DNA from: Rhizophagus irregularis
Taxonomy: Eukaryota
NCBI RefSeq assembly: GCF_026210795.1
Contig: NC_089433.1
Span: 4,340,001 to 4,404,000 of the forward strand
Direction of reading: 5' to 3'
DNA: 64,000 nt
In this document: piece by piece, positions 11,210 to 61,755 of the stretch
How the letters are laid out: each line of letters opens with the position of its first letter
Numbering within the stretch: position 1 is the stretch's first letter
Made by a program: the position numbers and the translations under genes
Notes under the pieces: model-generated
Databases searched by the model: none
What the model saw: the letters and a program-made list of their open reading frames with translations, nothing else
What the model was told of the DNA's origin: nothing

Positions 11210-13313
11210 TTTTAAAATTTAAACTTAAAATAGTAATTATGTAAAATTTATTGTAAAACTTTGGTCATTATATCCACTGATCGGCAGAATTAAGGATTTA
11301 GGTCACATGACGTTTAATCGGCTGAATGTGACATGATCAAACCATTCCCAAATAAAAAAAGATCAAATATCATATTAAAACTAGAATATGCGATTTGCCA
11401 GGGGACTTCGTCCCCCAGGAGTTATTATTTTATTTATGGCTTATAGTTTTAAATATACAAATAAAATATATAAAAAAAAGTATAGAAACTTGGAATATAC
11501 TAATGTTTTTATTTAATAAATTAATATGTTAATTATTTTAATAATTAATATTTAATAAATTTTACATTTATAAAGGTAATGGAACAGCAGCTTTTTGTTC
11601 TAAACGTTTATATTCTTCAATCATTGATTTATCTGTAATAAAAGTAGAAGGATGTAAGGAAGCTATATGCAATTTAGATAAATCTGAATATCTACTTAAT
11701 GCAGTGTATGCTTACCCAGCAGCAAAAAATTGGTTATCAAGACTTACAGAAACTTCTGGTAAAGTTAAACCTTGTGTTTTATGAACTGTAAGTGCAAATG
11801 CATTTTGTAGAGGAAATTGACATCTACTTGATGGCTTTCCATTATTAATCATAAATGTTGCAGTTTCTTTTTTAATTCCAATATCAATAATACCACCTTT
11901 TACACTAAAGGCTATCCTTACTTCTAGATTTTGTAAATCAAGATCAGTTATAACTCCAATAGTACCATTATATATATTTTGATCTATTAAATTATTTTTA
12001 AGATACATAACACGAGCACCTTGTTGTAAACATAAATGACTGGAAAGATTAGTTTTCTTTTTAAAAAGTTTTTGTGTATCATCTGGATTGTATTGTTGGT
12101 TATCAATATAATCAATAGCTGAACTAATTAGAAATTTATCTTCATTTACTGGTAACATATTACAAATAATATTATTAATCCGATTAGCAGTTTGGTTATA
12201 TCCAACAATATTTGTAATATTAAGAATGGTGTTAAGAGGTTTATTATGATCAAAATTATTTTCTTTTTCATATAAAATAGTCCATGTAGTTATAGAAATA
12301 TTACCAAATCTAATTTCTTGTAAGGCATTATAATATTGCATATCTTGATTTTGTCTTTGTAGTTCTTTTAAAAATAAAGGATAAAAGAGTTTTCATTCTG
12401 ATGATTTATATACTGGTGAGCCAGTTACTGGAGGTAATTGAGCTAAATCACCAACAATTATTACATTTAATCCTCCAAATGCAATAGTTTGTTGCTGAAT
12501 AATAGAAAACATATCAGAAATAAAACTAAAAAGAGTAGCTGATACCATAGAAATTTCATCAATAATTAAAGTATCTATAGTTTTTAAATATTTGAAAAAA
12601 TCATAATCATAAAAAGCTAAAGATTGAAATCCACTGTGTGTTTCATGAATCCTTAATGTGGAATGTATAGTTTCACCTCCAATATTTGTAGCAGCTATAC
12701 CAGTTGGAGCTAGTAATAAATAATTTGACCTTTTACTTTTTAAATCATTAATAATTAAATTAATTAAAAATGATTTACCAGTACCAGATGATCCAGTAAT
12801 GAAAAAATATGGATGTTTGTTTTTTTGATGACTTGGGCCACCCAAAATATTGCGAATTGTAGAAAGAGCATTTAATTGATCATTTGGAAGAGTTAATGCA
12901 TTACAATGGGAATAAATAGGAGGATCAATTCGTAAGGAATTAAGTTGTATTGTAAGAAGTTCTGTTATAGAAGCTGGTATTATAGTTTGTAAATTATTAA
13001 TTAAAGATTCTAATAAATTATTAAATTGAAGATTAATCTTTAATTGTTGTGAACGTAAAAAATCTTGGGTAACTTGTTGTATTTCTTCTTGAAATTCTGG
13101 ATGATGATGCAGCCAATGTTCTCAATATGTTGAAAAAGTGCCAAGTAATTCTTCTTCCCTTCTGCAAGGAATTTCAAGTAAAAGTTTTTGATAAAAAAAT
13201 AGTTCTCCATCTTCTAATTTTAAATGTCTAAATCTAACTAATTTTTGATTTGTTCTTTTAATTACATAATTTCCTAATTTATCAATATAAATAAACTGTG
13301 GAGTTGTTGGTCT

Positions 13314-14401
13314 TAGTGCTCTACATGAGCTGGCTCGAGCCGAGCTACAGTCTGGCTTGGCTCGGCTTGAAGATCTGCGCCAAGCCAAGCCTGAAATGAG
13401 CCGAGTCACAAAAAATCTTGGCTCAGCTCAGTTCGAGCCAAGCTGAGCCATGAAAATCCTGGCTTGAGCCAAGCTGGGCTCGAGCTGGCTCGAGCTTTAT
13501 CATAAAAATGTTTTCGCAACATTTTTACTTTAAATTATTAAAAAAAACGTTGTGAAACATTTTTTACTTTTATATTTATATAAAACGCTGAAACTATTTG
13601 TTTCGGTGTTTTTCCTTTTAATTTTACATGTAAAAACGCTGAAACTGATAGTTTCGGCGTTTTTTTTTCGATTTTACATGTAAAAGCACCGGAATAATTG
13701 GTTCCGGCATATTTTCTTTTGGTTTTACATGTAAAAATGCCAAAACTGATAGTTTTGGCATTTTTTTTGATTTTACATGTAAAAACGCTGGAATAATTGG
13801 TTCCGGTGTATTTCCTTTTGGTTTTACATGTAAAAACGCCAAAACTGATAGTTTCGGCATTTTTTTCGATTTTACATGTAAAAGCACTGGAATAATTGGT
13901 TCCGGCGTATTTCTTTTTGATTTTACATGTAAAAACGTCGGAATCATTAGTTCCGGCATTTTTTTTTCAATTTTACATGTAAAAATGCCAGAATCATTAG
14001 TTCCGGCATTTTTTTCAATTTTACATGTAAAAATGCCAAAATTATTAGTTCCAGCATTTTTTTTCAATTTTACATGTAAAAACTTAAATAAATGTTTTCG
14101 CAACGTTCTTTAATAAACAATGAAAAAAAGTTGCGAAAACGTTTCATTTATGCATGCATTATTATATAAAAACATTTCGCAACATTATTTGTATAATAGC
14201 TCATTTGGCTCATAAGCCAGCTTGAGCTTTTTGAGCCAAGTTTGTTACAGGCTCGAGCTTTTTGAGCTGAGCCTAATAACTGGCTCGAGCTCTTCCAAGC
14301 TGGCTTGTGAGCCACCAAGCCAATTTAATCATGGCTTGGCTTGGCTCAGCTTGAAAAGCTTGAGCCAGCTCATGAGCCAGCTTGGCTCGTGTAGAGCACT
14401 A
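13314..14401. mobile_element. Non-autonomous hAT element inserted in the Helitron RepHel gene
   Basis: TIR TAGTGCTCTACA(T/C)GAGC. 8-bp TSD GTTGGTCT (13306-13313 and 14402-14409). GAGCC/GGCTC subterminal repeats. Internal ~58-bp tandem repeat built on the palindrome TTTTACATGTAAAA. Confidence 0.93.
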
Positions 14402-14537
14402 GTTGGTCTAGTTATTACTACTTCATAATTTTGAAAATATTGTGGATAAGTTAAATTGCTAAATTCTTCTTCTACTGGACGATCAAAATATTTTTCAATA
14501 TGGTTTTTCCAATAAGGATTATTATTTTCATCAATTA

Positions 14538-15006
14538 TTGCCATTTTCAGAAATGTTGGCACTCAGTGTGTTGATCATTTCTCAAATCGAACACACTGAA
14601 CACACACTGAACACAAACAAAACACAGCAATTAAAATTGCGAAAAAAAATTTTTTCCTTTATAAAACAAAAAATTAGACTTCGATAATATATTTTTAGGT
14701 AGTGTGCATAAAAAAATGTATAAAAATTATATTATTTATATATATGTATTCACTTGTATTTGCTTGTATTCGCTTATATTCAGTGTGTTCGGTTGTGTTC
14801 AGTTGTGTTCAGTGTGTGTTCGGTATAAATTTTAACATTTTCAATTTTTTTCATAACTAAAAATTGATAAAAATAGTTTTTATGTAAAACTATATACGCA
14901 CACTTCAAGTTCTCATAATTTTTTATATGTGTTCACGGTGTGTTCGGTGTGTTCATTTTGTAAAAATGATTGACACATTGAGTGCCAACATTTCTGAAAA
15001 CGGCAA
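14538..15006. mobile_element. MITE with TA target duplication (Tc1/mariner-type)
   Basis: ~35-bp TIR TTGCC(A/G)TTTTCAGAAATGTTGGCACTCA(A/G)TGTGT. Removing the element and one TA restores the Rep frame (…IRPIYL-IDENNNPYW…). Confidence 0.88.
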
Positions 15007-15912
15007 TAAATAAATAGGTCGAATAGCTTTTTGTCTACTTGTAGGAGGATCAGTAGTAAGATATGTAACAGCACAGGAAGAGTTACAAATAGTTTCTCCT
15101 AATATTAAGAACATTAATTCCATAGATCCTAATCTTCGAGCTACTATATGTTCTTTGAATTTGTCATCTTCTTGTATATTGAAAACATGGGATAGTTCTG
15201 ATTTTGCTATATATTTTGTTAAATAAAAGGCTAATTTTCTAGAACTAACATATTGTATATTCATATGAGCATTCCAAATCATTAAAGTTTGTGGATGATA
15301 AGGAACTATCCATTGATCTTCAGCTTTAATACATCTGTAAATATAATGTTGAGTATCAATATCAAAATATGTAACTGGAGAAAAAGGATGAGGAAATCCT
15401 TTTTTACAAGTATGACCTAAAGTAGCTGAACCTCCACATTTTGCACTACATGTATGAACTTGATTTGCTTTTACTTTTTCATATAAATCAGATTCAATAT
15501 CTGGATCAGGTAAATCAGATCTTATAAGATTTTTAGCAATCATTTGTTCAATAGATTTAGAAACCCAATATACACCATGGGTATGTGCTGCACCACGATT
15601 TTGAAATTCTACTCTTTCAAAAAAGTTAGTTAAATTACCCCATTCTGAATGTTCAGGGTTTTTCCAAATATGTTTTTTAAGTTGCTGTAAACGGTGTATA
15701 AAATGTAATGTAGTATGTAATGGTCTATTTGTTGGAATAGTATCATGATTATCTGTTGCTTTTAAAATTTTATGCAAATGTGTCCAGTGGCTTTCAGCCA
15801 TTGTAAGAGTAATAAATAGTGATGGTAATCCAAATGTTGAAATCATTGTATTTACATGAAGTTCTTTTTCATAAAAATATATATCACCAGTACGAATAAA
15901 AGTAGGTAAAGT

Positions 15913-16125
15913 AGGGATGCTCAACCAACTCGACTCATATAGAGGATAATCCTGTGTGCATAAAGAAGGAAAATATCACAAATCAACAATTATTGACGTA
16001 AAACGTCCAACCAATAATTACCAGAACACTTCCACTTTTGAGATTTTGACACCTGTTGATTTGATCAAGACGAGAATAATTACGAAACCTTCATTGTACG
16101 AGAATGAATCCCCTTTTGTATCACT
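15913..16125. other. ~210-bp insertion of unclear class in the Rep coding region
   Basis: Rep reads …IDESITT [insert] TLPTFIRTG…. Ends AGGGATGC and GTATCACT are weakly inverted. No convincing TSD. Confidence 0.45.
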
Positions 16126-16335
16126 TGTTGTTATAGATTCATCTATTATAAGTCTATTGGAATAACTTGATGTTTTTATAATTTCTGCTGCAGTTGGTGG
16201 ACGATAAACTTCATCAGCCTTATTTTGCCTCCAGATACGTTGATTATTTTGGTGATTACGAATTTTTTCTAATTGTAAATATGACCATGCTAACCATTTA
16301 GGATGAAGTCTAAATCGTGAATCAATATTTAAGAC

Positions 16336-19300
16336 TAGTGCTCCGAACGAGTCGATTCGAGTTAAGTTAAAATTAAACTCGGTTTGACTCGAAAAAAACG
16401 AGTCGATCCGAGTCAAGTTTTAATTATAAAAAATTATCAAATCGATTCAGATCGACTCGGAAAATGTATTGGCTCGTACTCGACTCGAATCGGTCAAGTC
16501 AAATCGAGTTAAGTACCCGAATCGAATTTAACTGGGTAATATTGTATTTTATAATGTCTGGTTTTTCTTGAGAGAAATGTGTCAAAACAATTCTCTTTTA
16601 TTTGAAACTCAAAGTTCAGTTATTGTTTTACACTTTTATTTGACCTAATATATTCTTTATTAATATTAACGTTTTGATAATACTCAAGGTGTATACTTTG
16701 AATTATAGCGCATTATACACATAAAGAAATTAGTGGTAGTCTGGTAGATGATAATAAACAAATAATAAATGCGGAAAGGACTACGAACAGCTTAATTCTT
16801 AAATTGTCAGATATTGACAAACTGTTTAAATGAAGTTAACAAACCATAAATTGAGGAAAATGCGCGTTAACGATGTACCAGGTAAAGAAGAACAAGAAAG
16901 TCAACGTATTAGAACTTCGTTCAATGTTCAACAATATTCTGGCTACGTTTTGGACTCTAGGATTCTTTGTACGATCAGTTATACTCAAATCAACGTGGTA
17001 TATTTTTATTTATAGAAAAGAGACTAGTTTAATTGTTTGGTTTATGGATACGTTATGTAGATTAGTTAGATAATTATTATTTATCGAGTATCAACATAAA
17101 AATAATAATGGAATACTTGAACCCAATTACATTAATATATTTTTCGATTATAAAATTTAAACAGTTAATCACATATGCAACACCTGTTATTCAGTAAATC
17201 ACATTTTTAAAAAAATTACATTAATTATTCAATCCTAATTTTTCCACCACGATTTTAAACACATGCACGCTTTTATAGTTTCGGGTGAAAGGCTGCATCT
17301 TTTTTGCGTCACAAGATCGGTACCTCCAGAAAAAGCTCTTTCGATTGGTACACTGGTTGCTAATTTAAACAATTAAACATTAAATCAGTAAATTAAAGTT
17401 TTGATCAATAATATATTTTTAAAGAATTTACCAGGAATGGCGAGATAATCACGCGCCATTGCCGCCAAGTGAGGATATTGGGATTCATTCAACTATAAAT
17501 AAATAATTTAGATTTAATAAATTATAAATTTTCCAATAAAATTATATTTTATTAGCCATACCTTCCACCATTCCAGTAAATTTATTCCATTTATACCTCC
17601 AGCTACAATCGGACATCCAAGATATAAATCCAATTCATTTTCATTCGATGATCATCATTTTTTGTATATATGTTGAAAGAGATCATCATCGGGAGATGAT
17701 ATATCATTGTCTTGAACTACATTTAGATCTAGTGTTGGCGCATACTGTGTTTCATATAAATTGTAAATATGTTGTCGTGCCTCTAATATATATTCATCCT
17801 CCCAATTATTATCCTTATAGTAGGTAAGTTTCAACCGGGGATCAAGAACTAAAAAAAAAATATAAACGTTAAAAATAAGTAAATAAAATTAAAATATAAA
17901 TGTTAAAAATAAGTAAACAAAATTAAAATAACAAAAAAAAACATACTGGTAGAAATGCTATATACCAAAGCATCTGTATACTGATAGTATTTTTTAAGTT
18001 TGTTCATAGCCTTCATTGCCGCTGTCTTTATAACATCTTTTATATCACTATTTTGAAAATCCTCAATTTTGTCCATTAACCAATTAAAAACAGGAATGGA
18101 GTTTTCAATTGTTGGAAAACGATTATGAGAAACATGTTTTGTAGCACGATCAAATATCTATAATATAAAAAATATTGTAATTTCACTAATTTGTAAATCA
18201 ATAAAAAATAATTATTTTATATAATTCATAAATCATAATATTCTTACATGTAATAACTGGTTTATTTCGTCAAGTAGTTCCCATTCAGCATCTTCTAACT
18301 CCCATCGGCATAAATCTTTATCTGCTGTTGCGGTGTTATCTAAAGCCTAAAGTGATTAATTAATTAATAAACAATTATAAATAAAATTTATTAATGATGG
18401 CAAATATTACCTCACGCAATTCACAGCTTCGTTTGATCATACTGTAGGTCGAGTTCCATCTCGTCCTTACATCAAGGACAAGTTCTTTATCGGGTAAGTT
18501 AGCTGCTCCACATTGGCGCGCAAATTTTTCTCATCTTTGTGAAGATGCGAGAATTTTTACAACAAGTTTACGGAGCTTAGGAATGACATCAACTATTTCT
18601 TTATTTTGGTTTAAAATCTCATCCTCACTCTCAACATATCCAACTTTCAAACTAGATAGTGCATCTTGTGCAGCAAGATTGATTACATGGGCCATGCACC
18701 TAATATGATTATTGTACGCAGTAAAATCGATACCTTTTTCCTGACAAGTTGTTTCTAATGCACTCATTAGGGTATCATTATTTGTAGCATTGTCTGTAGT
18801 ACATGCTATAATCTAAATTTCATATAATAAAAAATAATTAATAAATTATAATTTATGCCAACTAATAATGAACAAATTACTCTACCTTTGTGAGTATTTT
18901 CATGTCATCACAAACACATCGTACAAAAGATTCATATAGGTTTTCACCAGAATGTAGTCCAGATAATTTAACAAAATCAAGTAAAAGTTCTTTTAGTTTC
19001 CAATCTTGGGATATCCAATGTACAGTGATCCCAAGAAACGGAATGCAACTTGGTGAGGTCCATGCATCAAGCGTGAATGAAAGACGTCCCGGAGTATTCT
19101 AATAATCAATATAATTATTAATTAATAATAATATTATTAGTTAAATAAATAAAAGTAATAAAAAAATTTACCTGTAAAGTATCCCCGTATTTTATTTATT
19201 TCTTCTTTAAATGCATTCATGATATCATTGCGGACTGTGTCTGCAGATGGTACTTTAGCATTAGGATTAAGTAAACAAAATAATCTTCGAAGTTGATCAC

Positions 19301-19982
19301 ATTCTACAACTACAAAAGGTTGGTCGTCACAAACGACCCATTTAAAAATAAATTCTCAAAATAAATCTGCAGTAAAACGCTAAATATATTTATTAAAACT
19401 CAAACATATTAGTTTTATTGTTAAATATTAAATATATTAATACAAAAAAAAAATTAAAAACTTACGGGAAATTCTTTTATGACAAACTTATCAATCTCAC
19501 TGGTATTTTCTATGTCTGACTCAACTTTATTAGGATGCTTATTTTTTAAGTGTTTATGAAGGTTAGAAGTATTTCCACCAGTTCATTTATACGCTTTACT
19601 TTTTATTTTAAATTATTTATTAATAAATTTACCTATAAAACTTAATAATAATAATTTTTAAATAATATACTTACGAACAGTAATTACATTGTGCCTTTTC
19701 CTTAACTATTGTAAAGTGTGCCCATACTGAACTATAAGTTCTTGATGAACTCTCACTCATTTTGGAGTTCGGGCTTATGGTTAAAATAAAAAAAAAAGTA
19801 TTGATCATCGATTTCAAACCAGGTCAGTCAAGTTTAATAGGGGACTCGGATTTGACTCGACTCGTGATCGACTCGTGACTCGACTTGATATCACGAGTAT
19901 AAAAATTATTTGACTCGTAATCGACTCGACTCGACTCGACTCGAAATTAAACCCGATTTGGCTCGACTCGTTCAGAGCACTA
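16336..19982. mobile_element. hAT (Ac-like) transposon inserted in the Helitron
   Basis: TIR TAGTGCTC(C/T)GAACGAGTCGA. 8-bp TSD TTTAAGAC (16328-16335 and 19983-19990). GACTC subterminal repeats. Confidence 0.95.
17250..19760 (-). pseudogene. Multi-exon BED-finger hAT transposase with in-frame stops
   Basis: MSESSSRTYSSVWAHFT..AQCNYC / NTSNLHKHL (BED finger); SFTLDAWTS; CTTDNATNND; HIRCMAHVINLAAQ; DVRTRWNST; LDPRLK; YPHLAAMARDYLAIP / ATSVPIERAFS. Internal TGA stops, e.g. at 18531. Confidence 0.92.
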
Positions 19983-21159
19983 TTTAAGACTCTTTATTTG
20001 ATATATTTGGAATATGTTTCTTCACGAGTAAGATTTGAATTAGAAGTATTATCATTATAATATCCTTTTCCATTTGGGAATAAATCAGGAAATAATAATG
20101 CTTCTAAATCTGGATCATTTATAGCTAAAGGTAATAAAGTACTATCTGGTGTTCTGATAAATCCTGCCATTAAATGAGAATAATGGTAATCCTCATTATG
20201 AATTTCAACATTAAAATTAGCATTAGGAACTACAATATCATTTGGCAAATATGGTGGTGCTGAATTATCATCAGGTAAATGAAAGGCACTTGGAAATGGA
20301 TTAGCTGTTTGTGAACCAGGTAAATCTAAAAGATGTGAATAATTTTTTAAAAAGGGGTTATGTTGTTTTAACCAATTGGCTGCTTCAATTAAAGTATCAT
20401 CAAGCCAAGAATTATTATTTCTTGATGAATTATTATCAAGGTAAGCACCAAGCATTCCAGAATATAATGTTAAAGCACGCATATTTTTTGAAAGGTTCAT
20501 TGATCCAGTTAATGTTCTGTATTCTGTATATATGGCACTTTGACCAGAAGTTCTACCTAAAGAATAATGTATAAATACGGGAGATAAATACATTCGTTTT
20601 CCTATAGGTATGGCTTGAATTTCATTTGGAATGGGATAAAGAAATGGAAATGCATATCTAGTAGTAGGTTTTTTACATGATAAATATACAGCAATGCGTC
20701 GTGGAGGTTTAATGTGAAAAGTTAATAATGATTTAGGTTCAGTTTCTGGGTATGCTTGCAAAAGAGGGTAAGAAAAATTCTCATCATAAGGTAACCATTC
20801 ACATTTCTCAGGATATATTAGACGACCACAAAATGCACATACAGCGCAAATAAATTGATTTAAAATAGATAAATTAAAATTTGATAGCAGGGTTAAGAAT
20901 TTTGTGCTTGGTATCCAAGGGTCAATGGGTGAATAATTTACAATAATAGGCATTGAATTTTCATATCACCAAGATTGGTGAGACTGTAATTGATTTTGTA
21001 ATTGTCTTAACATAATTTCAGGATCACTTTGATGATCAGTAAGAGGATCTGTATCAAAAGTATAATGTTGATATGTATTGAAAGACATAGTAATTAAATG
21101 TAAAGTTAAAAAAAAATTATTAAAATTTTAATTTTTTTTAAAGAAAAAAAAAAAGGTTC

Positions 21160-21600
21160 ATTTTATACTATGTTAACTGGTCATGATCGGTCATGACCAT
21201 GGCTGATATTGGTCGGTCAAAGGCTTTGTGATCAACTATCTTAAATGCCTAAAATGTTAACTGATCAGGATTGATTATGACTGTGGCTGTTTGGCTGATA
21301 TTGGTTGGCCAAAGGCTTTGTAATTGACTATCTTAAATGCCTAAAATGTTAACTGATCAGGATTTGTCATGGCTGTGCTTATTTTTTTTTAAAGAAAAAA
21401 AAAGTTCAGAATATGCATTATTTTATACTATATTAACTGGTCGTGGTCGGTCATGACCGTGGCTGATATTGGTCGATCAAAGCCTCAAAGGCTTTGTGAT
21501 CGACTATCTTAAATGCCTAAAATGCTAACTGATCGGGATTGGTCATGGCTGTGCTGGTCAAAGGCTTTGTGATCGACTATCTTAAATGCTTAAAATGGGC
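21160..21600. repeat. Tandem ~75-95-bp repeats upstream of the RepHel start
   Basis: aaaggctttgtgatc(g/a)actatcttaaatgc(c/t)taaaatg recurs four times (one copy diverged). Confidence 0.75.
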
Positions 21601-22259
21601 AGAATGCTGAAAAATGCTGAAAATGTCGAAAAATGCCGAAAATGCTGAAAAATCAAGAATGCCGAAGGCTGAGAATTCATTGATTTTTGTGCGAAATGTA
21701 TGAATTTTGGCAATTATTATAATATGAAATTTTTTAAATTACCTAACAAATTTATTTAAAAATTTTTATTTTATGGTAAAATCATTACATTTATTTTTTA
21801 ATTGTTTTACTTAAAAAGAATTAGTGAATATATTAACGAAATCAGTGGCAATTTATTATCAAATTTCTTTTTGGATTTTATTTGTAATTTTATTTATTTT
21901 TTCTAAAAATATTAATATTTCAATTAATCAATTGTTAATGATAAATGAAAAAATAAGTTTATCAGTGTCATGTGCTTTCAATAAAAAAGTTTTTTTTATT
22001 TACAAATAAATAATTAATAAATCATTTTTTTTAAATTAGAACATTTATTTTTTTAGTAATTCATAAGTATCATGCTTTAATGTCTTTTAGAAAAAAAAGA
22101 ATAATAAATTTTATTCAAAACGAAAGTTTCAAAATGTACTAATCTTGAAAAGTTTGAATAAAAAGAAACTGAAAAATACTTTAAAAAAAATTAAAGAAAA
22201 AAATTCAAAGCTGTTTTAAAATTATTCATTCAATGAACCTATTATATTCGAAAATAAAA

Positions 22260-23160
22260 GGTGACCTACGATAAGTAGAGAAAATGTTGTTTCAAGATGA
22301 CATTTATTAACCCATGCAAATCAAAGCAAAGGACCTATAGAAAGAAAAAATGAATTGTTAAAAGTTTTTCAAGATTAATAAAAAGGAAATTAAAAAATAA
22401 ATTTACCAAGAATCTGAGATAGTAAAATGAAATCGAAGAAATCTACAAAACAAAAAAATAAAGAAATGTTAAATCTATTTTCAAGAAAAAAGATAAAAAA
22501 AGTTTCAAATTTACGTTATTATCAATCATCATTATAATTCGCTATCTACTTCTAAATCATTGTTCTCATCTTTCTTTTTCGTGTCTTTGTCCTCTAAATT
22601 GTTGTTTTTGTCATCTAGAACCATTTCCACTTCTCTTTGTGTTGATTGGTTAGACTATGGAATCATTGGGTCATTATAATAGAATATTTATCTGAATTAT
22701 CCAAATCGAAATAGGAACAGAAATCTACAAAAGATAAAAGGAAACATTAGTAATGTTTCTTAAGTCAATTCCGAATAGAACGCCACTCTTACAACTTACC
22801 CAGGTAAGTTTCAGGTCTTCAAGGCCGTTCTCTACAAAAACAAAAGAAAAACAAAACGTTAATAACGTTTCTTAAGCCAATTCCGAATAGAACGCCACCA
22901 TTACAACTTACCCAGATAAGTTCCAGATCTTCAAGGCCATTCCCTACAAAAACAAAGGAAAAATGAAACGTTAAAAACGTTTCTTAAGTATTAAAAAAAA
23001 CCTTTGTCCCCAATGAACTTACGAAATCGTTTCCAAGATTTCAAGAGTCCGTTTCCTATAAAATATAAAAAATAAACGTTAATAAAATTTTTAAAAAGTG
23101 AATTTAAAAACTTTTTGATATTTACCTTTCAAGTCGAGTCCTAAATAAAGTTCTGTGCTC
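22260..23160 (-). repeat. Array of micro-exon/short-intron units inside the Helitron
   Basis: About 6-7 GTAAG/GTAAA...TAG introns of ~65-75 nt separated mostly by 30-40-nt exons. Units at ~22720-22990 are near-identical. Confidence 0.6.
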
Positions 23161-24271
23161 CTGATTTTATATTTGAAATTTTTTTTTTAAAAAAAGAAAA
23201 ATCAAAATCCCAAAAAAATTTATATAAAAAAAATAAAAATCAGGTGTAAAACTGAAAAAAATAATGATTTAATAAAATCGAAAAAAATATATTTTTTAAA
23301 AAATAAAAAATAAAACTGATAAAAAAAAATTAAATAACAAAAAAAGCCATAACGGGAAAAAATGTTTATATAAAAAAAAAATTATATAAAAAAAAAGGGT
23401 TTAGTTTATAAAAAAAAATATTACCGATACGAAATTTTTTTTTTATTTAAAAATTGAAAAAAAAGAGATCGATAAATAATTTATCAAATCTGATTTATTT
23501 AGTCCAATTAAATTTGATTGTCAAAAATTATTTTGGTCATTTATTTTTGACGTAATTACAATACGGCCTTGTGCGACATTTGGAACAGAATCTTTTTTTT
23601 TTTTTACGATGACAAACGCATATTTATTTAATTATAATACCCTTGTAAATGGTATATTGCTCACAAATACAAATACAAGCTATAGAATAATCTCAATATA
23701 TCCATTGAAATTAAGTATGTAAAACCACTCGCTCTCTTCATGTCAAAGCGATTCCCGTCCCTGATCAACACCTTAACCACTACACCAACCTATCTAGAGC
23801 TATCTACGCCCAGGGTTCTTTTCTTTTTTTAACTTTAACTTCTCTCAAACCGTCTTCTGATTCTTCAAAATCCATGTCGCTGCGTGTTCCCTGTTTTTTC
23901 TTTATACGCTTTTTGACTTTTTTATATAATCTTCATCCTCCTCTGATGATGACGATGTAGGCAGTGAAAATCCACTACTTTTGATATAGCAAATGGATTC
24001 CGATTCATATACAGTATTGGAATCTGACATTCTGAGGATGAGGATTTGAAATTAGTGTAGTATGATTAACAGTTTAATATACATCACTTATTATATGTCC
24101 ATGTTAACAAATATTTTATTTATATAAAGAAAATGCGAAATACAGATAAGATAAAACAAAAAGAGAATGATATATTTATAAAGGGATATAATAAAATGGA
24201 AAATGAGAAATGTAGAGAATGAAGAATCAAAAAAATAGAACTATCAAAGTAAAAAAGTGAAATGTAAAAAG

Positions 24272-25389
24272 CTAATTAGGGTTATCCAAATTATTATTGG
24301 AATCAGTGGTGGCAAGAACGTCTGAAGCGATATCTGCTAATTTTTGTAATTTGTTAACACGAAAAGATGATCTCGGTTTTCTTTTTGTAGGTTATTTGGG
24401 TTGTTGCAAGTTTTTATGGATTGTTTTCGCGTTAGTATGTGTGTTTGCTGCTGGTGGAGTAGAGATTGTTTTCACGTTAGTATGTGTATTTGCTACTGGC
24501 GGAGTAGAGATTGTTTTCACGTTAGTATGTGTATTTGCTGCTGGCGGAGTAGAAGAGGAAGTGGTATTTGTTGTTGAAGTAGGAGGTAGTTGAGGCTTGA
24601 TAGGTGATGCATCAGGACTTGAAACAGGTGATTTTAAGGAATTTAGCCATGACATACGTTTTGTTGGGGATGAAGTAATAGGAGATTGTTGGCCTTGAAG
24701 GAAACTAAAGTTGTGTAGCTCTAAATAGAGCTTGCCTTTGATTGATGATAGTGTGCCTGAAAAAAAAACAGATGATCCTCGTTTAACAATAGTGGTTTGA
24801 TTCATAAACCTGCTACCGGTTGGGTGAAATAATGTAATTGACACTTCAGTAGGTTTATCTTTTGATAAATAATCGGTAATAACACAATCTATTTGAATAC
24901 CAATATCAGTAATTAGAGCAGGTTCAGATGCCACAGCGATACCAACTACATTAATTTGGTGTACTGGAAGATTTTCGGGCAATATATCCAAAATAGTGGC
25001 CGAAGTTAAGATAATCTAAATTGGTTAATAATAATTTTTTTTCAATATTCTTTCCCTTTTTTTCTTGAAGTTTAATTAATGACAACAAAAATACATGATT
25101 AAATTTTATTTATTTACAAAAATTGAATACTTACGTCAAGTTCATTATTTTTAGCACTTTTACTAAATTTAGAGTTTGCAATTGATAAAACTTGTCCTTC
25201 GCTCAATTTCGGTACATAACATGGCTTAGTTTCATCTACAGGATAAAATACTGTAATGTTGAAAGTTTGTACAGCCTCTCCCTCCTCCTCGAGCCGAGCG
25301 TATCCAAGAGCAGAACCTATGAAAAAGTCACTCAAGGTTCTTTCTTTATAATCTGATACGTAAAGTATCGTCGAAAGTTGGGCAGGCAT
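24272..25389 (-). pseudogene. Two-exon putative tandem OB-fold ssDNA-binding (RPA-like) protein with a Ser/Thr/Pro-rich tail; Helitron accessory gene
   Basis: ATG at 25389; intron 25134-25016 (GTAAGT..TAG) joins the frames. Two beta-rich modules (QTFNITVFYP..LSEGQVLSIANSKF; VSITLFHP..VKRGSSVFFSGTL). Premature TAA at 24392, with the frame open again to TAG at 24272. The fold call is pattern-based. Confidence 0.6.
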
Positions 25390-27669
25390 TATTGATGTAT
25401 ATATATAAAGACAGGTAAAAGAAAATAGGAAAAGAAAAAAATTTTTTTTTTCATTCAAATTAAAAGGACTAGATAATTTATTATCAGTCACCAGAAATGT
25501 CACATGCAAATCATTTTCATAATAAATCGATTTTGTGTAATGTTAATCCAACAACTTTATTTTATAATTAAACGTCAAATTCCAAATGTACCACGCTTGT
25601 GTAAATTACAAAATTTATAGATAATCATGTGTTCTATAAATTTTATCATTACTTTCCATTTTAGTAATTTTTTTTTTCGTTTTACATTTCGTGCAAAAAA
25701 CCCTTAAAAAAAGCTTTTCTTTGAGATTAAAGTTGAGAAATGGAGTAAAAAATATTTTTAACAATAGTAATATATGCAAATTCACGAGAAGAAAATGTTT
25801 TTCTAAGTTATTAATGACGGTCAGTTAGGTAGTTTTTGTGTAAAATGTAAAAAATTGGATTTTTTTTTATTATAAGGAGCTTTTTAATATAAAAAACGAA
25901 AAAAAAGTATATTAAAATCATTTATTTTTGTAAGTTATCAATATCCTCTCGTATCTACAACTCTTCAATTATACTTGTTAGTTATACAATACTATATGCT
26001 AATACTAATTTCTCTTCTCTAGGCGATCTGGAATTATTTTTGATGATTTGGAATTTCTTATTTTTTCAGCTTAGAAATTTTGCCTAAAGTAAAGATAATT
26101 ATTTTTTTTCTCATACTACCATTACTTATTTTATAACTAATATGTATTGTTTGTCCTTTTTTTTATGTAGGTTTAATAGTAGTTAAAAATTATTTTTGAC
26201 GATTTCTTAATTTTCGTGATGGACGTCAAATAATATTAATTAATCAGATGAAAACAAGTTGATTATTCATGTGAGTTTATTTTTTGCATAGATAATTTTG
26301 TATTCATATAGGATAGATTTATTTTTATGTAGAACAATTATTTTTTCGTGTATAATAGAAATTTTTTTATCAATTTTCATAGATAAATAAATATAAATTT
26401 ATTTTTTTTTAAATATTTTATGCTGCCATCAAAATTTTTTTTAATATTTTAATTAAAAATAATTTATTTTTTTTACAAATTACTATAGCATAACACTAGT
26501 CGAAAAAGGAATATTTGGCCTTAGTAAAATTCGGCCTATATTCGACTAAAATTAAAAATTCGACCTTAATTAGCAATGATCTACGATTAGACATTGGTCG
26601 AATAACCAACCATGCTGGTCGAATAGCCATGTCACGCATTACGCGTATCAAAAGTTTAAAAAAGAATCTTATGCATTCTTTTTTAAACTTTTATTCCTTC
26701 TTTTCCTCGTCCTTTGGCTCTATAGGCGCGGAAAAAAACAAAAAAAAATTATTTTATTTTCTTTTTAAAAATTTTAATGTGGCCCTTTCCCTTTTCGTAG
26801 TAATTCTATGGGAATACTGGTCGAAACCACGCACCGGACTTTGGATAATAAGGTAAATGGGAAGGGAAGTCGTTTTTTTTACTTTAGAACCGGTTTTTTT
26901 TACTTTAGAAACGTTTTAACGTTTCTTTTTTTTCTTTTTCTTGCAGGTATTGCCGGATGAAACGAGCTTCGTGATAATAAAAAAACTAAGATTCGTAAGT
27001 AGAATCTTAGTAGTTCTTTTTAATATTATGGAACAGTTACTAACCGTTCTTGTTTTTTTTTATAGGTTTCGGGAAAACGAAGGGAAAGGGTAAAACGAAG
27101 GGAAAAGGGTAAGACGAAGGGAAAAGAGTAAAACGAAGGGAAAGGGTAAGACAAAGGGGAAAGGGTAAGACGAAGGGGAAAGGGTAAGACGAAGGGGAAA
27201 GGGTAAGACGAAGGGGAAAGAGAAAATGAAAGGAAAGGGTAAAACAAAAGGGAAAGGGAAAGTGGGGACGGAAAAAGGAGTACTTTTTTAAGATTCGTAA
27301 GTATTATATTACGAATCTTAAATTTTTTTTTTCTTTTTTATTATTATGGAACGGTTTACTAACCATTCCTTTCTTTTTTTATAGGTTCGGGTGGACTTCC
27401 GACGAATGGAAAACCAAGATTCGTAAGTAAGTACGAATCTTGATTTAATTTTTTTTCTTTTTTTTAAAAAATATTACGAACGGTTACTAATAACCGTTCT
27501 TTTCTATTTTTTAGGTTTCGGATGGGCTTCCGAAGAAGGAAAACCAAGAAACCAAGATTCGTAAGTAAGTACGAATCTTGGTTTAATTTTTTTTTCTTTT
27601 TTTAAAAAAATATTACGAATGGTTACTAATAACCGTTTTTTTCTATTTTTTAGGTTTCGGGTGGGCTTC

Positions 27670-28031
27670 CACAGGTCGAAATTAGTTAAATAGGGTATCA
27701 ATAGGTTATCAATAGGTTATCAATCGGCTATCAATAGGCTACCCTATTGGTAGCCTATTGAACTTACGCCATAATCCGTCACCAATCGGGCAGGCTGATT
27801 GTTAGCCAATTAATAACTTATTGATAACCTATTAGTATCCTATTGGTATTTTTATCAAATTGGTTATCAATAAGGTATTAATAGGTTATCAATAGGTTAT
27901 AATCAGCCTGCCCGATTGGTGACGGATTATGGCGCAAGTTCAATAGGCTACCAATAGGGTAGCCTATTGATAGCCGATTGATAACCTATTGATAACCTAT
28001 TGATACCCTATTTAACTAATTTCGACCTGTA
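27670..28031. mobile_element. Foldback MITE with CACAG termini (CACTA/CMC family), same terminus as the 44563-61686 transposon
   Basis: ~130-bp near-perfect inverted arms beginning CACAGGTCGAAA. 3-bp TSD TTC. Confidence 0.9.
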
Positions 28032-28797
28032 TTCGATCTTCGGAAAAAGTGAAACCAAGATTCGTAAGTAACTACGAATCTTGGTTTCACTTTTTTTTGT
28101 TTTTTTTTAATATATGAACGGTTTACTAACCGTTCTTTCTTTTTTTTAGGATCTGGTGGCTTCCGAAGTATAGAAAAACCAAGTTTCGTAAGTATGAAAC
28201 TTGGTTTATTTTTATTTATTTTTTAATTTAATATGAACGGTTACTAACCGTTCTTTTTTTACTTTTTTTTTAGGTTCGGCCGTTCGGGTGGGCTTCTGAA
28301 GTATAGAAACTCCAAAGATTCGTAAGTACGAATTCTTTGGAGTTTTTTTTTTATATTTTTAATATAAACGGTTAATACTAACCGTTATTTTTTATTTTTT
28401 TTTTAGGTTCGGCTCTCGGGTGACTTTTGAAAAATGAAAAAAACCAAGTTTCGTAAGTTCGTACGAAACTTGGTTATTTTTTTTGTTTATTTTTAATATT
28501 ATAAACGGTTATTAATAACCGTTCTTTTTCTTTTTTTTAGGATCGGATGTTCCGAAGGACAGGAAAATTCCAAGATTCGTAAGAATCTTGGATTTTTTTA
28601 TTTTTTTAAAAAAATATTACGAACGGTTACTAATAACCGTTCTTTTATTTTTTATAGATTCGGGTGGGCTTCTGTGTTCCGAAGAACGGGAAAATTCCAA
28701 AGATTTATAAGAATCTTGGATTTTTTTTTATTTTTTTAAAAAAATATTACGAACGGTTACTAATAACCGTTCTTTTCTATTTTCTAGGATCTGGCGG

Positions 28798-29467
28798 TGT
28801 AACCCGAGAAATCAGGATAATCACGTGAACGGATGAATAGAAGACCGAATGGAACAAGGATAAATAATTAGCTGAAGGATAAATAATTAGCCGATAAAAT
28901 AATATTTATAGTTTAGTTTAGTTTAGTCACGAGATAGTCATATGATAATACATCTTTATTTTCTTATTGTTCTTAAATTTTTATTAGTAGAAAAGTTAGA
29001 AATGGTAGAAATAATTTTCTTAAAATGTATAAATATAGGTGGGATTCGTTAGGAATTCCGCAGTCAGTTTTGACTCAAATTTAATAAAATAAATATTAAT
29101 TATTAAAAGTTATCTTGAATATGCTCATTGTACGCTTGAGAATTAATTAATATTATTATTAAGTCCAGAAAAGTAAAGAAAAGGGAATTATTCTCGTTTT
29201 GTTGTATGAAATATAATAAGAAGATAGGAGAACTCTCGCAGTTTATAAGAAATGAAGTGGTAATATTTGAAAGAATAAATATTACAGGAAGCATAATATT
29301 TTGGGAATATTATGAATAAGTGGTAGTATTGAGAATAAATACTACGGACAAATGAGAAAGGAAGCGAGAAGTTAAAGGAAAAATAAAATCTAAACCAAGC
29401 AAAGTAACGAGAAATAAAGTTAAATGAGAAAGATGTGTTTATCCACGGGTGGCAGACATGGGTGACA
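28798..29467. mobile_element. Solo LTR (probably Ty3/gypsy)
   Basis: TGTAACCC...GGGTGACA termini. 4-bp TSD GCGG. Interrupts one micro-exon of the array. Confidence 0.88.
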
Positions 29468-30809
29468 GCGGACTTCTGAAGAAAGGAAAATCAAGAAACC
29501 AAGATTCGTAAGTAAGTACGAATCTTGGTTTAATTTTTTTGTTTTTTTTTAATATATGAACAGTTCTAACCGTTCTTTTCTTTTTTTTTAGGATCTGGCG
29601 GGCTTCCGAAGAACGGAAAACCAAGAAACCAAGATTCGTAAGTAAGTACGAATCTTGGTTCTTTTTTTTGTTTTTTTTTAATATATGAACGGTTTACTAA
29701 TAACCGTTCTTTTCTTTTTTTTAGGATCGGGTGGGCTTCCGAAAAATGAAAACCCAAAGATTCGTAAGTACGAGTACAAATCTTTAATTTTTTTTTATTT
29801 ATTATTATTACGAATGGTTTACTAACCATTCTTTCTTTTTTTAATAGGTTCGGGTGGGCTTCCGAAGAACGAAAACCAAAAGATAAAGATTCGTAAGTAC
29901 GAATCTTTATATATATTTTTTTTTTATCATTTTGGAACGGTTTACTAACCGTTCCTTTCTTTTTTTATAGGTTCGGGCGGGCTTTTGTGTGGAAAAACCA
30001 AGATTCGTAAGTACGAATCTTGGTTTATTTTTTTTTGATTTTTTTTTTTAATATTAATGAACGGTTACTAATAACCGTTCTTTCTTTTTTTTTAGGCTTC
30101 GGATTGGCTTCTGATCTTTGGAAAAGTGGAACCAAGATTCGTAAATACGAATCTTGGTTTATTTTTTTTGATTTTTTTTTTAATATTATTATGAACGGTT
30201 ACTAATAACCATTCTTTTTAGGTCTCGGGTGTCTCGGATGTCTTCCGAAGAACGGAAAAAACCAAAGATTCGTAAGTAAGTACGAATCTTGGTTTTTTTT
30301 CTTATTTTTTTTTAATATTATGAACGGTTACTAACCGTTCTTCTCTTTTTTTTATAGGTTCGGGTGGATTGCTAAAGAATAATCAAAGATTCGTATATAC
30401 GAATACATGAATCATGTAATTGTGGAATTGTATTTGAATTAGCAATATTTTTTGTAAATTAGATAGATGCAATAATAATAATATAATTATAAAGTATTTA
30501 AGCATTAATAAATACATTTATTTAATAAATTTGATAAAAAAAATCAAAATAAATTCATAAATAAATAGGTTGTTATTAGACTATAATTCGGCTTAAAGTT
30601 TTAAGGTCGAATATTGGTCAATTTAAACCTAAATAATGGTCGAATAATTAGTCCGAATTTGGGATGATTGGCACCCTAAATGCGCCCAAAAATTTGACCT
30701 CAATTTGACACAGGTTAGACCATTATTCGACCTATATTCGACCTGGTCAAATTTAGGCCGAATTGTCCTTTTTCGACTAGTGTGAACGTATAATAGTTTG
30801 GGATTTAAG

Positions 30810-33800
30810 TATCAGTTGCTTCATCATCATCATCAGATAGCATGTTTGTTTCTTCTTCTTTCCCCCTCCCCCTCCCTCTCCCTCTCCCCCTCCCCCTTCC
30901 TCTTCCTCTCCCTCCTCTCCCTTTTTCTTTTTCTTTTTCTTCTCTTATTTCTATTTTTTTTTTCTTTTTTTATTTTAGTAATATCAGCAACTGTAACCTG
31001 TGTGATATTTCTTGCTCTTCTTCCAATAGTTGTATAACTTTCTGTTAAAAAAATTTCTTGATTTGCTATTGTTTGTAATCTCTTAATTCCAATATCATAC
31101 ACAATAATTAATTGATTAACTCCATTATCATTTAAATTGTTACAGAATTCAAATACTGGATTTTTAAGAGGATTTAAAGATTCAAAAGCATTTATCAATA
31201 AGTGTGCGAGCTCCCGCCAAATCTTTTCCTTTCGAGATTGAACATTACGTGGTCAGGAACTTTGAACAGAATCTCCAATGTAATCACAAATCAGCATTTC
31301 TGTTAGTTCCTTTTCTAGTTGAGTAGCTTTTATTCTTAATTTCAACTCTTCCCCATCTGCCAGAATTCTTGTTACATTTTGTTTTACAAATTTTACTCCA
31401 AATGTTTCTAGTGCTTCGTCATATGCAAAAAAATGTCCAGGATTTGTTAAATTAATGGATGGTGCTGTACGAAGCATTTTACGAAGTAGAGGATTATTTT
31501 CTATGCAATGTATATGATACGTTACAGATCTAGCATAATTTATTTGATTTACCGGTGTTACCCCTAGTCACGTGTAGAGTTACAACTTACTGCGCCAGAA
31601 GATTATGTGGAAAATTAGGATCTACTGTGCCCAACTGTGCCAAGCCGACCTAGCCGCAGCCTACTTAGCCTATTATTTCTATTATATTTATTATATTAAT
31701 TATATTTAATATAATCGATATAATTATTTTATTTATTATATTTATTATATTAGTTATATTTATTATATTAGTTATATCTATTATATTTATTATATCTTTA
31801 TATGTAGTAACTTTTATATAAATAACGTTGGTATTTTCCCTCATTATAAGTTTAGTTCCTTCAGTTCGAATTAGTTTACCTTTAGTTCCTTAATTCTTAT
31901 TCTTGTAATTATAAAGTTCTATAATAAAGTATAACCTTTTACACTATAAACGAACTCCCTATATTAAGCGTGTCTTGTTTGATTGGATTTCAGTCATAGT
32001 TAAACGTACTTAATCTTCCTGACTGCAAATCATAGTTAATCTATTCAACGTACCGAATCAGTTAACACCGGCAATAGGAAATAAAGGTGAAAAAGCTTTT
32101 AAACTTTCATGTTGTAAATCAAATATTCCCCATCTAATACCAAACCAATGTGCACGCCAATAACTAGCCCATTGAAAATATAAATACCAAACTTTTACAC
32201 AATTATTTTCTTCTTTTAAAATATTATCTAATGTCTGTTTTTTCTTTTTTTACATATATATGAATTGCTATTCCTACGGAAATCCAAATCAATTCCAATA
32301 CTCTTGAAGTTGCTCTGAAATCTACACCTTTCTCTAATTTATCTAGAAATCGTACACCTAATATTCCTGCCATATTGAATATTCTGTAACCAGAAAAAAT
32401 TGTAATTAATGCCATCATCATATCCTTATTGGTATGCCATTGTCCAAGGATCATTTTTGTTTTTTGATTTGTTTTACAATAACTAATACCTCATCTAAAA
32501 ATAGCTTCATCCGCAACTACATTAATATATTCATTATTTTCCATACCAATTTCATTTTTATACATTTCTAGACATTTATGCACAGCGGAATCACTTGATG
32601 GTAGATCTCCAGCATCAAGAATTATAACATTAGGAGGCGGAAGATTAAAACTAACTTCAAAATGTGTCATAATTTGATTACATATATCATCTTCATTAAA
32701 ATCTGAACGATAATTAGGAGTGAAATTTTCATTAAACGTAAGTAATTGTTCAAAAACTGAATTAAAAATATTAAATGTTTGTTGTGAAAAATTATTTTGC
32801 CCAAAAAGTTTTTGCTTATTTTCGTCTTGTATTTCAATAATTTCAGGTAATTCATTAGGTAGTTGGTATTGAAAGAGCATCCGTAATGTAGCGTGTGAAT
32901 TTCCTCTAACAGCATCAAAAATGTTTCCATAACCAAATGTAGTTTCTTTAAAATCCACATTATCAATAATACCAAGATTCCAAATATTCTTTTCATGGCA
33001 AATTCGATCAGTTGGATCTACTAAGAGAGCACGAATTTTTTTCAAATTTCGTTCATGTCTTTGAGAGTGGCTTGTAATATTAACAACTTCTAAAATTCCC
33101 TGCAATGATGACAAAAGTTTTGGTTTTCGGCAAAGACTTGTCATTGTTCGAGGTAACCAAATTTTCCATCCTTTAAATGCAATGTTTAAAATTATTGAAA
33201 TAAAAAATGTGGTTTGTTTAGTAATTTTTTCATAATTTAAAGGTTTTAATGGTTTTTTACGATATTTTCTTTGTCTATCTATAATTTTTTTTTTGTTTCA
33301 TATAAAGTTTTTAAAAGACCATCATAAAATTGTACTAAACATGAAGGAAATATAGAATGATATTCTTCTATAGAAGTAGGTGATTCAAGTAATTTTTTGT
33401 GAATTTTTAATTCATTTTTCGCGAGTATTATTGAATGTGCTAATGCTTCTCCAAATTCAAAAAAATGTTTTGACGTAAAATTCTTAGGATTTAATTTTTT
33501 ATCAAAATTGTAATTAAATTTGACTAAAATAAGAATAATAAGAATTATAAATAAAGAAGGTACTTCATTTTTTATATTTTGTACTGATAGTAGCATTGAT
33601 GATGTAGTCTCAGATTTTTCTTGAGTATTAATAATACATAAAATAGGAGCTAAATGTGCTAAAATTTTTTCTTAAAATGCTAAATTATCAGAATTAGCAA
33701 TATTAAGAATCCAATATCCAATTACTTCTAATGCCTTTTTGGTATCGTTTTTATGATGTGACAGGTTATCACAATTTGGATCTTTTTTTATACCTTATCC

Positions 33801-60950: not shown

Positions 60951-61755
60951 TCATCACCATTTATTTCTAATAACTTGTTTGTTCGTTTAATGTATAACAT
61001 TTATTAATTCTTTATTTTTAAATTCGTTCCTGTTAGCAATCAGAACAATCAGAAACAAAAACGTACCGATTTTCGCTTAATCATATTACTTTTATTATGA
61101 TTGTATACATTGATATAAGTTCCCATTTGAAATAAATTATATTTACAACTATGATTGTACAATCAAATTTTTGAATATATTGTAAATTGTAATTAATAAA
61201 GCGCATGTAGGCTGGAATTAAAACCATTGTTTTTAATAATTTGTAATTAATAATGCGTAAATAAATATATAATAAATAAAATAGGTGCATCATAAACATT
61301 TTATAAAACCGATTTTACCAATCGGCTATTACAAATCAGCTATTAATCAGTCATCAATACATTATCAATCGGTCATTAATACGCTACCAATCGGTCATTA
61401 ATCAGATACTGCCCGATTGCTGTCGGATTAAGCAAATCCAATAAGTCATCAATCAGTTATCAATTGACCATTAATTGACCATCGTTCGGCCATCAATTGA
61501 CTCTCAATTTGTTACCAATCGGGCAGCCCGGATGATAGCCAGTTGTTGTCAGATTTTGGCGGAAATCAACTATCAATCGGGCAGCCCGATTGGTATCAAA
61601 TTGAGAAAATCAGTCACCAACCAGGCATCAATCGGATACCCGATTGATGCCTGGTTGGTGACTGATTTGGCATCTTTCGACCTGTGTAAGAAGCCAGGAA
61701 TGTGATTGCTCGATTTTACAAATAGAGGGTTTCTAGTTCCCAGTGAAACCATTTT

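What the first reader, a model, noticed from the sequence alone, without database searches (positions are those of the whole stretch)
22260..23160. A second array with the same hairpin-caged splice architecture but unrelated sequence, inside the Helitron
Seen on the minus strand: short introns with mostly 30-40-nt exons. One donor is in a palindrome with the exon end (AACTTAC-CTGG-GTAAGTT at ~22792-22810; the neighbouring unit has one mismatch). The branch regions are palindromic (AAACGTTATTAACGTTT, GAAACGTTTTTAACGTTTC, GAAACATTACTAATGTTTC). The exon sequence differs from the CACTA array. Inference: the same RNA design in two TE classes suggests a general TE-borne system or convergence, rather than one satellite.
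Basis: partly seen in the sequence, partly recalled or inferred. Interest (0 to 1): 0.7.

Follow-up and report, generated by a model that had tools for sequence, protein, structure and literature searches.

The report
Shared branch-site hairpin in transposon introns
Three duplicated, predicted introns inside a likely Helitron transposon of a mycorrhizal-type fungus end in a small predicted RNA hairpin over the branch site; the same intron end occurs in a neighbouring transposon of another class and in RNA from other loci, so it is likely a copied cassette rather than an independently evolved splice cage, and splicing of this copy was not seen.

Summary
All quoted motifs are at the stated places. 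They belong to seven predicted GT-AG introns (59-80 nt; internal exons 33, 32, 32, 210, 36, 65 nt) between an SSB-fold cargo gene and the Rep-helicase of a Rhizophagus-type Helitron. Only introns 2-4, which are tandem duplicates, carry hairpins. The 8-bp branch hairpin is real: 3 of 7 here, 15 of 17 in the CACTA element, 0 of 26 other predicted introns. It is not unrelated sequence: the CACTA element's first intron has the same one, and up to 119 polyA reads place it in other introns with other exons. The donor hairpins are weak and built differently from the CACTA ones. A public R. irregularis gene model (59 aa) maps to exons 5-7, so the hairpin introns likely lie in a 5' leader. No splice junction was seen in RNA, and this copy looks CpG-decayed and silent. 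Verdict: a shared intron-end cassette, probably spread by duplication and transposon shuffling. Convergence is unlikely; a selected splicing element remains possible but untested.

The parts
23056..23125 (-). Predicted intron 1 (70 nt); branch TTAAC followed by GTTT, no hairpin
23023..23055 (-).
22944..23022 (-). Predicted intron 2 (79 nt) with branch hairpin at 22983-22965; its last ~45 nt are the module hit by polyA reads from other loci
22912..22943 (-). Predicted exon 3 (32 nt); donor stem 22922-22905 with one G-U pair, broken by an A-G mismatch in L003
22832..22911 (-). Predicted intron 3 (80 nt) with branch hairpin at 22871-22853
22800..22831 (-). Predicted exon 4 (32 nt), duplicate of exon 3; perfect 7-bp donor stem 22810-22793
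22725..22799 (-). Predicted intron 4 (75 nt) with branch hairpin at 22759-22741; both stem CpGs decayed, giving an A-U pair
22515..22724 (-). Predicted exon 5 (210 nt); holds the ATG (22624) of a small ORF and an alternative donor at 22549 used by the public gene model P0039
22443..22514 (-). Predicted intron 5 (72 nt), no stable hairpin; acceptor used by model P0039
22335..22406 (-). Predicted intron 6 (72 nt), no stable hairpin; both ends used by model P0039; weakly similar to the module
22266..22624 (-). Span of the modelled 59-aa ORF (22624-22550, 22442-22407, 22334-22266), open in the window and in L003; 54 of 59 and 57 of 59 residues identical to P0039 (UniRef U9TTZ0, R. irregularis, uncharacterized)
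22211..22269 (-). Weak predicted intron 7 (59 nt); its donor overlaps the stop codon of the ORF
24392..25542 (-). Upstream cargo gene in two ORFs; second part folds as an OB/SSB-like domain; relatives named Rhizophagus
11380..21100 (-). Helitron Rep-helicase region, broken by stops and nested insertions (PF14214 at 14953-15975, PIF1 at 12393-13121), ending in a GC hairpin plus CTAG near 11380
26909..26924 (+). Same Helitron-type branch hairpin in the first predicted intron (26853-26946) of the CACTA element
26995..30357 (+). CACTA array: 16 further predicted introns with the variant branch hairpin and long stems bracketing the donor

Best explanation
The stretch is likely a silent, CpG-decayed copy of a small Helitron-carried gene whose predicted 5' leader holds four short introns, three of them duplicates that end in a shared cassette of about 40 nt (8-bp hairpin with the predicted branch motif at its tip, then poly-pyrimidine and AG), and this cassette likely spread among transposon-borne transcripts by being copied along with DNA. 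Shown: the motifs, the duplication, the same cassette in the CACTA element and in polyA reads with other flanks, the decay pattern, and a public gene model on exons 5-7. Inferred: the hairpin arose from a short duplication of the self-complementary hexamer AACGTT next to the branch site (a period-9 direct repeat is also an inverted repeat) and was perfected by arm-to-arm copying; in RNA it would act as a mild brake on branch-site recognition (2-2.3 kcal/mol to expose the branch A, 2.5-4.7 with the next C), so these introns would splice slowly or be partly retained. The donor stems are a local, weaker feature of these three units and not part of the shared design.
For: Duplication. Same cassette in CACTA intron 1. 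Up to 119 polyA reads of X21 lie only on 22941-22985 and run on into at least two other exon families and several other intron 5' halves, two with their own GT donors; contigs of X16 and X17 show the same. Branch hairpin energy at or below -4.5 kcal/mol in 3 of 7, 15 of 17 and 0 of 26 introns. 71 of 72 cells paired across 9 chosen hairpins while the loops vary. Loop length of 2-7 nt fits a hairpin, not a fixed DNA site. Decay: 31 of 41 differences from L003 are C>T or G>A; stem CpGs kept 4 of 6 against 14 of 26 elsewhere. TAACGTTT without a partner arm occurs in intron 1 and in a hAT intron. Gene model P0039 uses intron 6 and the intron-5 acceptor. Opening energies.
Against: No junction read for any of the seven introns; exon 5 had depth 0 over 22545-22643 in all four runs, and X20 and X21 had depth 0 over 22330-22661, so splicing rests on motifs and one gene model of unknown basis. 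Only about a quarter of each polyA run was read and the strains may differ. Two double-sided differences between Helitron-type and CACTA-type stems and double-sided non-CpG changes in CACTA donor stems could reflect selection rather than arm copying. The intron-2 donor also sits in an exon-side hairpin (p 0.01), so donor pairing in these units may not be accidental. The ORF shows 5 synonymous and 3 non-synonymous changes (p 0.13), which does not prove it is a gene. The Helitron 5' end was not found.
Confidence: 0.5

Rival explanations
1. The hairpin is a selected splicing element of mycorrhizal-fungus transposon transcripts: it presents or gates the branch site (and long stems present the donor in the CACTA array) to control intron retention, and so expression or small-RNA silencing of the element.
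For: Fixed position of the hairpin's AAC 22-29 nt before AG in all but one tabulated hairpin unit; identical tip geometry in two sequence types with double-sided differences; presence in transcribed introns of other loci; ordinary fungal introns avoid folding at these sites (PMC4574748 abstract); stalled spliceosomes trigger siRNA in Cryptococcus (as cited in PMC6643885).
Against: No excess retention of stem CpGs in this copy; four A-C type mismatches among CACTA branch stems against G-U at two units, so no bias to RNA-tolerated changes; 4 of 25 control branch sites are as costly to open as intron 3; the nine hairpins are related, so the shuffle control overstates covariation; no junction data.
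Confidence: 0.22
2. The palindromes are neutral DNA features produced by slippage and template switching in AT-rich repeats, and the sites are not used for splicing at all.
For: No junctions; the reads and contigs that cover the array are unspliced (records 1, 7, 9); whole units 3 and 4 fold no better than shuffles (z 0.42 and -0.78).
Against: Seven correctly spaced donor, branch, poly-Y, AG sets on one strand, all 13 splice ends checked unchanged in L003; a public gene model joins exons 5-7 in a frame open in both copies.
Confidence: 0.15
3. The two arrays evolved the same design independently (convergence).
For: Exons are unrelated; the CACTA array stem has a different sequence; donor stems differ in geometry.
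Against: The CACTA element itself carries the Helitron-type cassette in its first intron, and the cassette recurs with other exons, which is what copying predicts.
Confidence: 0.08
4. The palindrome is a double-stranded DNA binding site (transposase or transcription factor) that happens to lie in introns.
For: It is a near-perfect inverted repeat present in two DNA transposons.
Against: Spacer length varies from 2 to 7 nt and the site is tied to the 3' splice site on one strand; it is not subterminal.
Confidence: 0.05

Closest known systems
Same-gene duplicated (SGD) and low-copy near-identical introns of fungi (PMC3609843, first third of text read)
   Same: Near-identical short spliceosomal introns repeated within one transcript by duplication
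   Different: Here the exon is duplicated with the intron, the host is a transposon cargo gene, and only the 3' part is shared with other loci
Introner-like elements (ILEs) of Dothideomycetes (PMC3609843)
   Same: Repeated intron sequence at unrelated loci with predicted secondary structure
   Different: ILEs are whole near-identical introns, longer than ordinary ones; here lengths are ordinary (75-80 nt against a control median of 73) and the 5' halves differ
Sister stwintrons and sister introns of Hypoxylaceae (PMC8469720, passages)
   Same: Proliferated introns with inverted repeats and an internal palindrome; the symmetry is reported not to be needed for excision
   Different: There the 45-55 nt terminal repeats fold the whole intron and the branch A is often unpaired; here a 19-nt local hairpin holds the predicted branch A paired at its tip
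Helitron captured or cargo genes (Pleurotus, PMC4289320, passages)
   Same: Small genes of unknown function carried between Helitron ends
   Different: Here the cargo lies upstream of Rep-helicase, is intron-rich, and appears silent
Stalled-spliceosome-triggered RNAi of transposons in Cryptococcus (Dumesic 2013, seen only as cited in PMC6643885)
   Same: Would give a function to poorly accessible splice sites in transposon RNA
   Different: No structural element is part of that account as cited; no small-RNA data were examined here

Membership tests
Helitron (host element) | Rep (HUH) and PIF1 helicase domains | tested here: met
   PF14214 E 9e-18 and PF05970 E 2e-29 on the same strand
Helitron (host element) | 3' hairpin followed by CTRR, before T | tested here: met
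   GC hairpin then CTAG|T near 11380; feature as defined in PMC4289320
Helitron (host element) | 5' TC end upstream of the array, showing that the array is inside | tested here: inconclusive
   End not located; the array lies between an SSB-fold gene and Rep; diverged second copies cover both regions but only as short contigs; L003 is colinear down to about 21700
Introner-like element | Whole introns near-identical at unrelated sites | tested here: not met
   Only the 3' ~40 nt are shared; 5' halves differ
Introner-like element | Longer than ordinary introns with stable whole-intron structure | tested here: not met
   75-80 nt against control median 73; unit z-scores -2.26, 0.42, -0.78
Introner-like element | Precise presence/absence at orthologous exon positions | not testable with these tools
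   No genome held; one homologous contig only
Same-gene duplicated introns | Near-identical introns within one transcription unit | tested here: met
   Units 3 and 4 are 88% identical over 112 nt
Spliceosomal U2 intron | GT donor, branch motif, poly-Y, YAG at normal spacing | tested here: met
   (intron 7 has only a weak branch motif)
Spliceosomal U2 intron | Excision in RNA | tested here: inconclusive
   No junctions; locus essentially uncovered in polyA reads; gene model P0039 implies intron 6 and the intron-5 acceptor
   Introns 2-4 only
   0 of 7 donor windows at or below -10 kcal/mol against 15 of 17; opposite geometry
Known Rfam RNA family | Match at gathering score | tested here: not met
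   No match in 22260-23160; 13 weak matches elsewhere in 21500-31000, all below gathering

The most novel reading that the evidence does not exclude
Glomeraceae transposons and their cargo transcripts share a selected intron-end RNA element that holds the branch motif at the tip of an 8-bp hairpin, conserved through compensatory change across element classes, and uses it to set intron retention and so the balance between expression and small-RNA silencing.
Probability: 0.22. Interest if true: 0.75.

Novelty: new variant of a known kind. Interest (0 to 1): 0.4.

Why it matters
Fungal introns normally avoid structure at donor and branch sites (PMC4574748 abstract). A branch-tip hairpin repeated across transposon classes and transcribed loci in a model mycorrhizal fungus would be either a new mode of partial intron propagation or a lineage-specific splicing control, and is testable at once with the public R. 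irregularis genome and long-read RNA. This particular locus, a decayed three-unit duplication, is supporting evidence for that wider module, not a second independent invention.

Tried and rejected
No whole genome is held, so the genome-wide transposon-versus-host test could not be run; the 26 control introns are hand-picked predictions from the window, mostly transposon-borne, some duplicated, none RNA-verified. The run search listed no indexed RNA holder (no evidence either way); X18 laid 0 records. Four viral-contig scans found nothing usable. Genome-contig scans gave 0 and 6 bacterial hits that were not examined and are taken as chance. Of 3 metagenome hits, L001 and L002 are bacterial chance matches and were dropped; only L003 was used. 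An unspliced 54-aa frame across exon 3 found no protein relatives; an antisense frame of the CACTA array found 2 similar unspliced translations. Atlas searches gave no usable hit; Pfam gave nothing significant for the small ORF; plasmids no match. Earlier-finding look-ups gave nothing on this locus or unrelated arrays. P0038 lies on a contig of the same length as L003 and is not counted as independent. Rejected: Introner membership; a long spliced ORF through exons 1-7 (11-17 stops per frame); the double A-U change in intron 4 as proof of selection (two mirrored CpG decays). Literature: searches found no description of this module in mycorrhizal fungi; subscription journals and supplements were not covered, and the Dumesic 2013 paper was not held.

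Full report
Setting. The window is an AT-rich nest of transposons; relatives of its proteins are named Rhizophagus irregularis and R. diaphanus. No genome is held. On the minus strand lie an SSB/OB-fold gene (24392-25542; model pLDDT 76.5, top Foldseek hits all single-stranded DNA binding proteins), the finding, and a broken Rep-helicase (PF14214, PIF1) ending in a hairpin plus CTAG near 11380. The array is therefore likely inside the Helitron, but the 5' end was not located.

Observation. All quoted strings are present. Seven GT-AG introns are predicted (six by a crude scan; the seventh by eye), with internal exons of 33, 32, 32, 210, 36 and 65 nt. Hairpins are confined to introns 2-4. Units 3 and 4 are a 112-nt tandem duplication at 88% and intron 2 shares their 3' half, so they count as about one event.

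Branch hairpin. It is an 8-bp stem with a 3-nt loop; the branch motif runs over the tip and the predicted branch A is paired at 0.94-0.97. Local folding at or below -4.5 kcal/mol occurs in 3 of 7 introns here, 15 of 17 in the CACTA element and 0 of 26 other predicted introns. By accessibility the contrast is weaker: opening costs 4.6, 3.8 and 2.9 kcal/mol against a control median of 1.6, and 4 of 25 controls reach 3.8; exposing the loop through the A costs only 2.0-2.3. Across nine hairpins chosen for a 3-nt loop, 71 of 72 cells pair and three pairs change on both sides; two of these separate the Helitron type from the CACTA type and may be one register shift, and the third is a mirrored CpG decay. 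The sequences are related, so this is not a probability.

Not unrelated. The Helitron-type hairpin is also in the first intron of the CACTA element, with 80% identity over 60 nt (AT-rich matches reach similar E-values, but the 31-nt core scores 45 against 22-29 in shuffles). Exons are unrelated. In polyA run X21, up to 119 reads lie on 22941-22985 alone at 80% likeness; 62, 17 and 10 reads continue into other exons and 85 and 12 into other intron 5' halves, the commonest with a GTGAGT donor about 30 nt upstream; X16 and X17 contigs agree. These reads contain intron sequence, but no spliced-to-unspliced ratio is available and both mate orientations are equally common. The one exon core searched is not enriched in the window, so the cassette is multi-locus; whether those loci are transposons is unknown.

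Donor hairpins. With G-U allowed none of 7 donors beats shuffles at p<0.05, against 11 of 17 in the CACTA element. The perfect stem at donor 4 has a chance rate of 20 in 3000; its neighbour is wobbled in the window and mismatched in L003, while 3 reads of a paralogue keep it. The intron-2 donor has its own exon-side hairpin (9.1 kcal/mol, p 0.01; 6.8, p 0.05 in L003), which tells somewhat against pure chance. The geometry differs from the CACTA array, where a 10-14 bp stem brackets the donor.

State of this copy. L003, a 95% identical metagenome copy, keeps all three branch stems perfect. Of 41 differences, 31 are C>T or G>A towards the window; stem CpGs are kept 4 of 6 times and others 14 of 26, as expected for a methylated, decaying element. 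Diverged copies also appear in X9 and X15.

Transcript. No junction matching any predicted intron was listed: none, none among the 15 shown of 37. Exon 5 was essentially uncovered in polyA reads; about a quarter of each run was read and strain identity is unknown. A search with an exon-5 frame found three proteins; P0039 (UniRef U9TTZ0, R. irregularis, uncharacterized) maps to 22624-22550, 22442-22407 and 22334-22266, is open in the window and L003, and uses intron 6 and the intron-5 acceptor with an earlier donor. Its basis (prediction or transcript) is unknown, and 5 synonymous against 3 non-synonymous changes is not significant (p 0.13). On this model introns 1-4 are 5' leader introns.

Mechanism. 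Most likely a copied intron-end cassette: the hexamer AACGTT is self-complementary, so a short duplication beside a TAACGTT branch site (seen unpaired in intron 1 and a hAT intron) creates the hairpin; tandem duplication and transposon shuffling then spread it (inferred). In RNA it would be a mild brake on branch recognition (predicted). The main rival is a selected element that gates splicing, with a possible link to small-RNA silencing as in Cryptococcus (cited in PMC6643885, passages). Convergence is unlikely.

Comparison. Closest are same-gene duplicated introns and introner-like elements (PMC3609843, first third read) and Hypoxylaceae sister introns (PMC8469720, passages); it fails the introner tests because only the 3' end is shared. 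Ordinary fungal introns avoid folding at these sites (PMC4574748, abstract). Passages of two mycorrhizal genome papers (10.1101/2024.11.04.621924, 10.1101/2022.10.19.511543) and ten searches showed no description of the module; bioRxiv supplements were not visible.

Verdict. Observation partly confirmed, interpretation partly supported, new variant of a known kind, interest 0.4; the selected-element reading has probability about 0.22 and would deserve 0.75.

Noticed in passing
window 26494-30782: Non-autonomous CACTA-type element (CACTAGTCGAAAAAGG ends) with 17 predicted introns; donor stems of 10-14 bp show double-sided non-CpG changes, a much stronger case for a maintained structure than the present finding
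   Followed up: partly
window ~16330-19982 (-): hAT-type element inserted in the Helitron Rep gene, with short inverted ends and an 8-bp target duplication GTCTTAAA; its nine predicted introns lack stable hairpins
   Followed up: partly
window 27680-28030: About 350-nt inverted repeat of 11-nt units inserted in the CACTA array, folding as a long hairpin
   Followed up: no
window 23804-24051 (-): Frameshifted small acidic/basic ORF between the SSB-like gene and the array; polyA reads of diverged paralogues hit it
   Followed up: no
window 22941-22985, loose ends: At least two other exon families and several other donors flank the same cassette in RNA and contigs; they would seed a genome-wide search
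   Followed up: partly
window 58981-61036 (+): Repeat-type gene upstream of an F-box hit with three duplicated introns beginning GTGAGTTCATTC; donor stems of 9 bp with G-U pairs (p 0.06-0.10), no branch hairpin
   Followed up: no
window 21180-21660: 92-nt and 9-10-nt tandem repeats directly upstream of the Helitron Rep start
   Followed up: no
window 13320-14400: Insertion with palindromic GAGCTCG/GGCTC-rich ends and a 51-nt tandem array inside the Helitron
   Followed up: no
window 22657-22655 (-): The stop before the exon-5 acidic frame reads as Gln in P0037, giving a 44-aa unspliced ORF in another copy
   Followed up: partly
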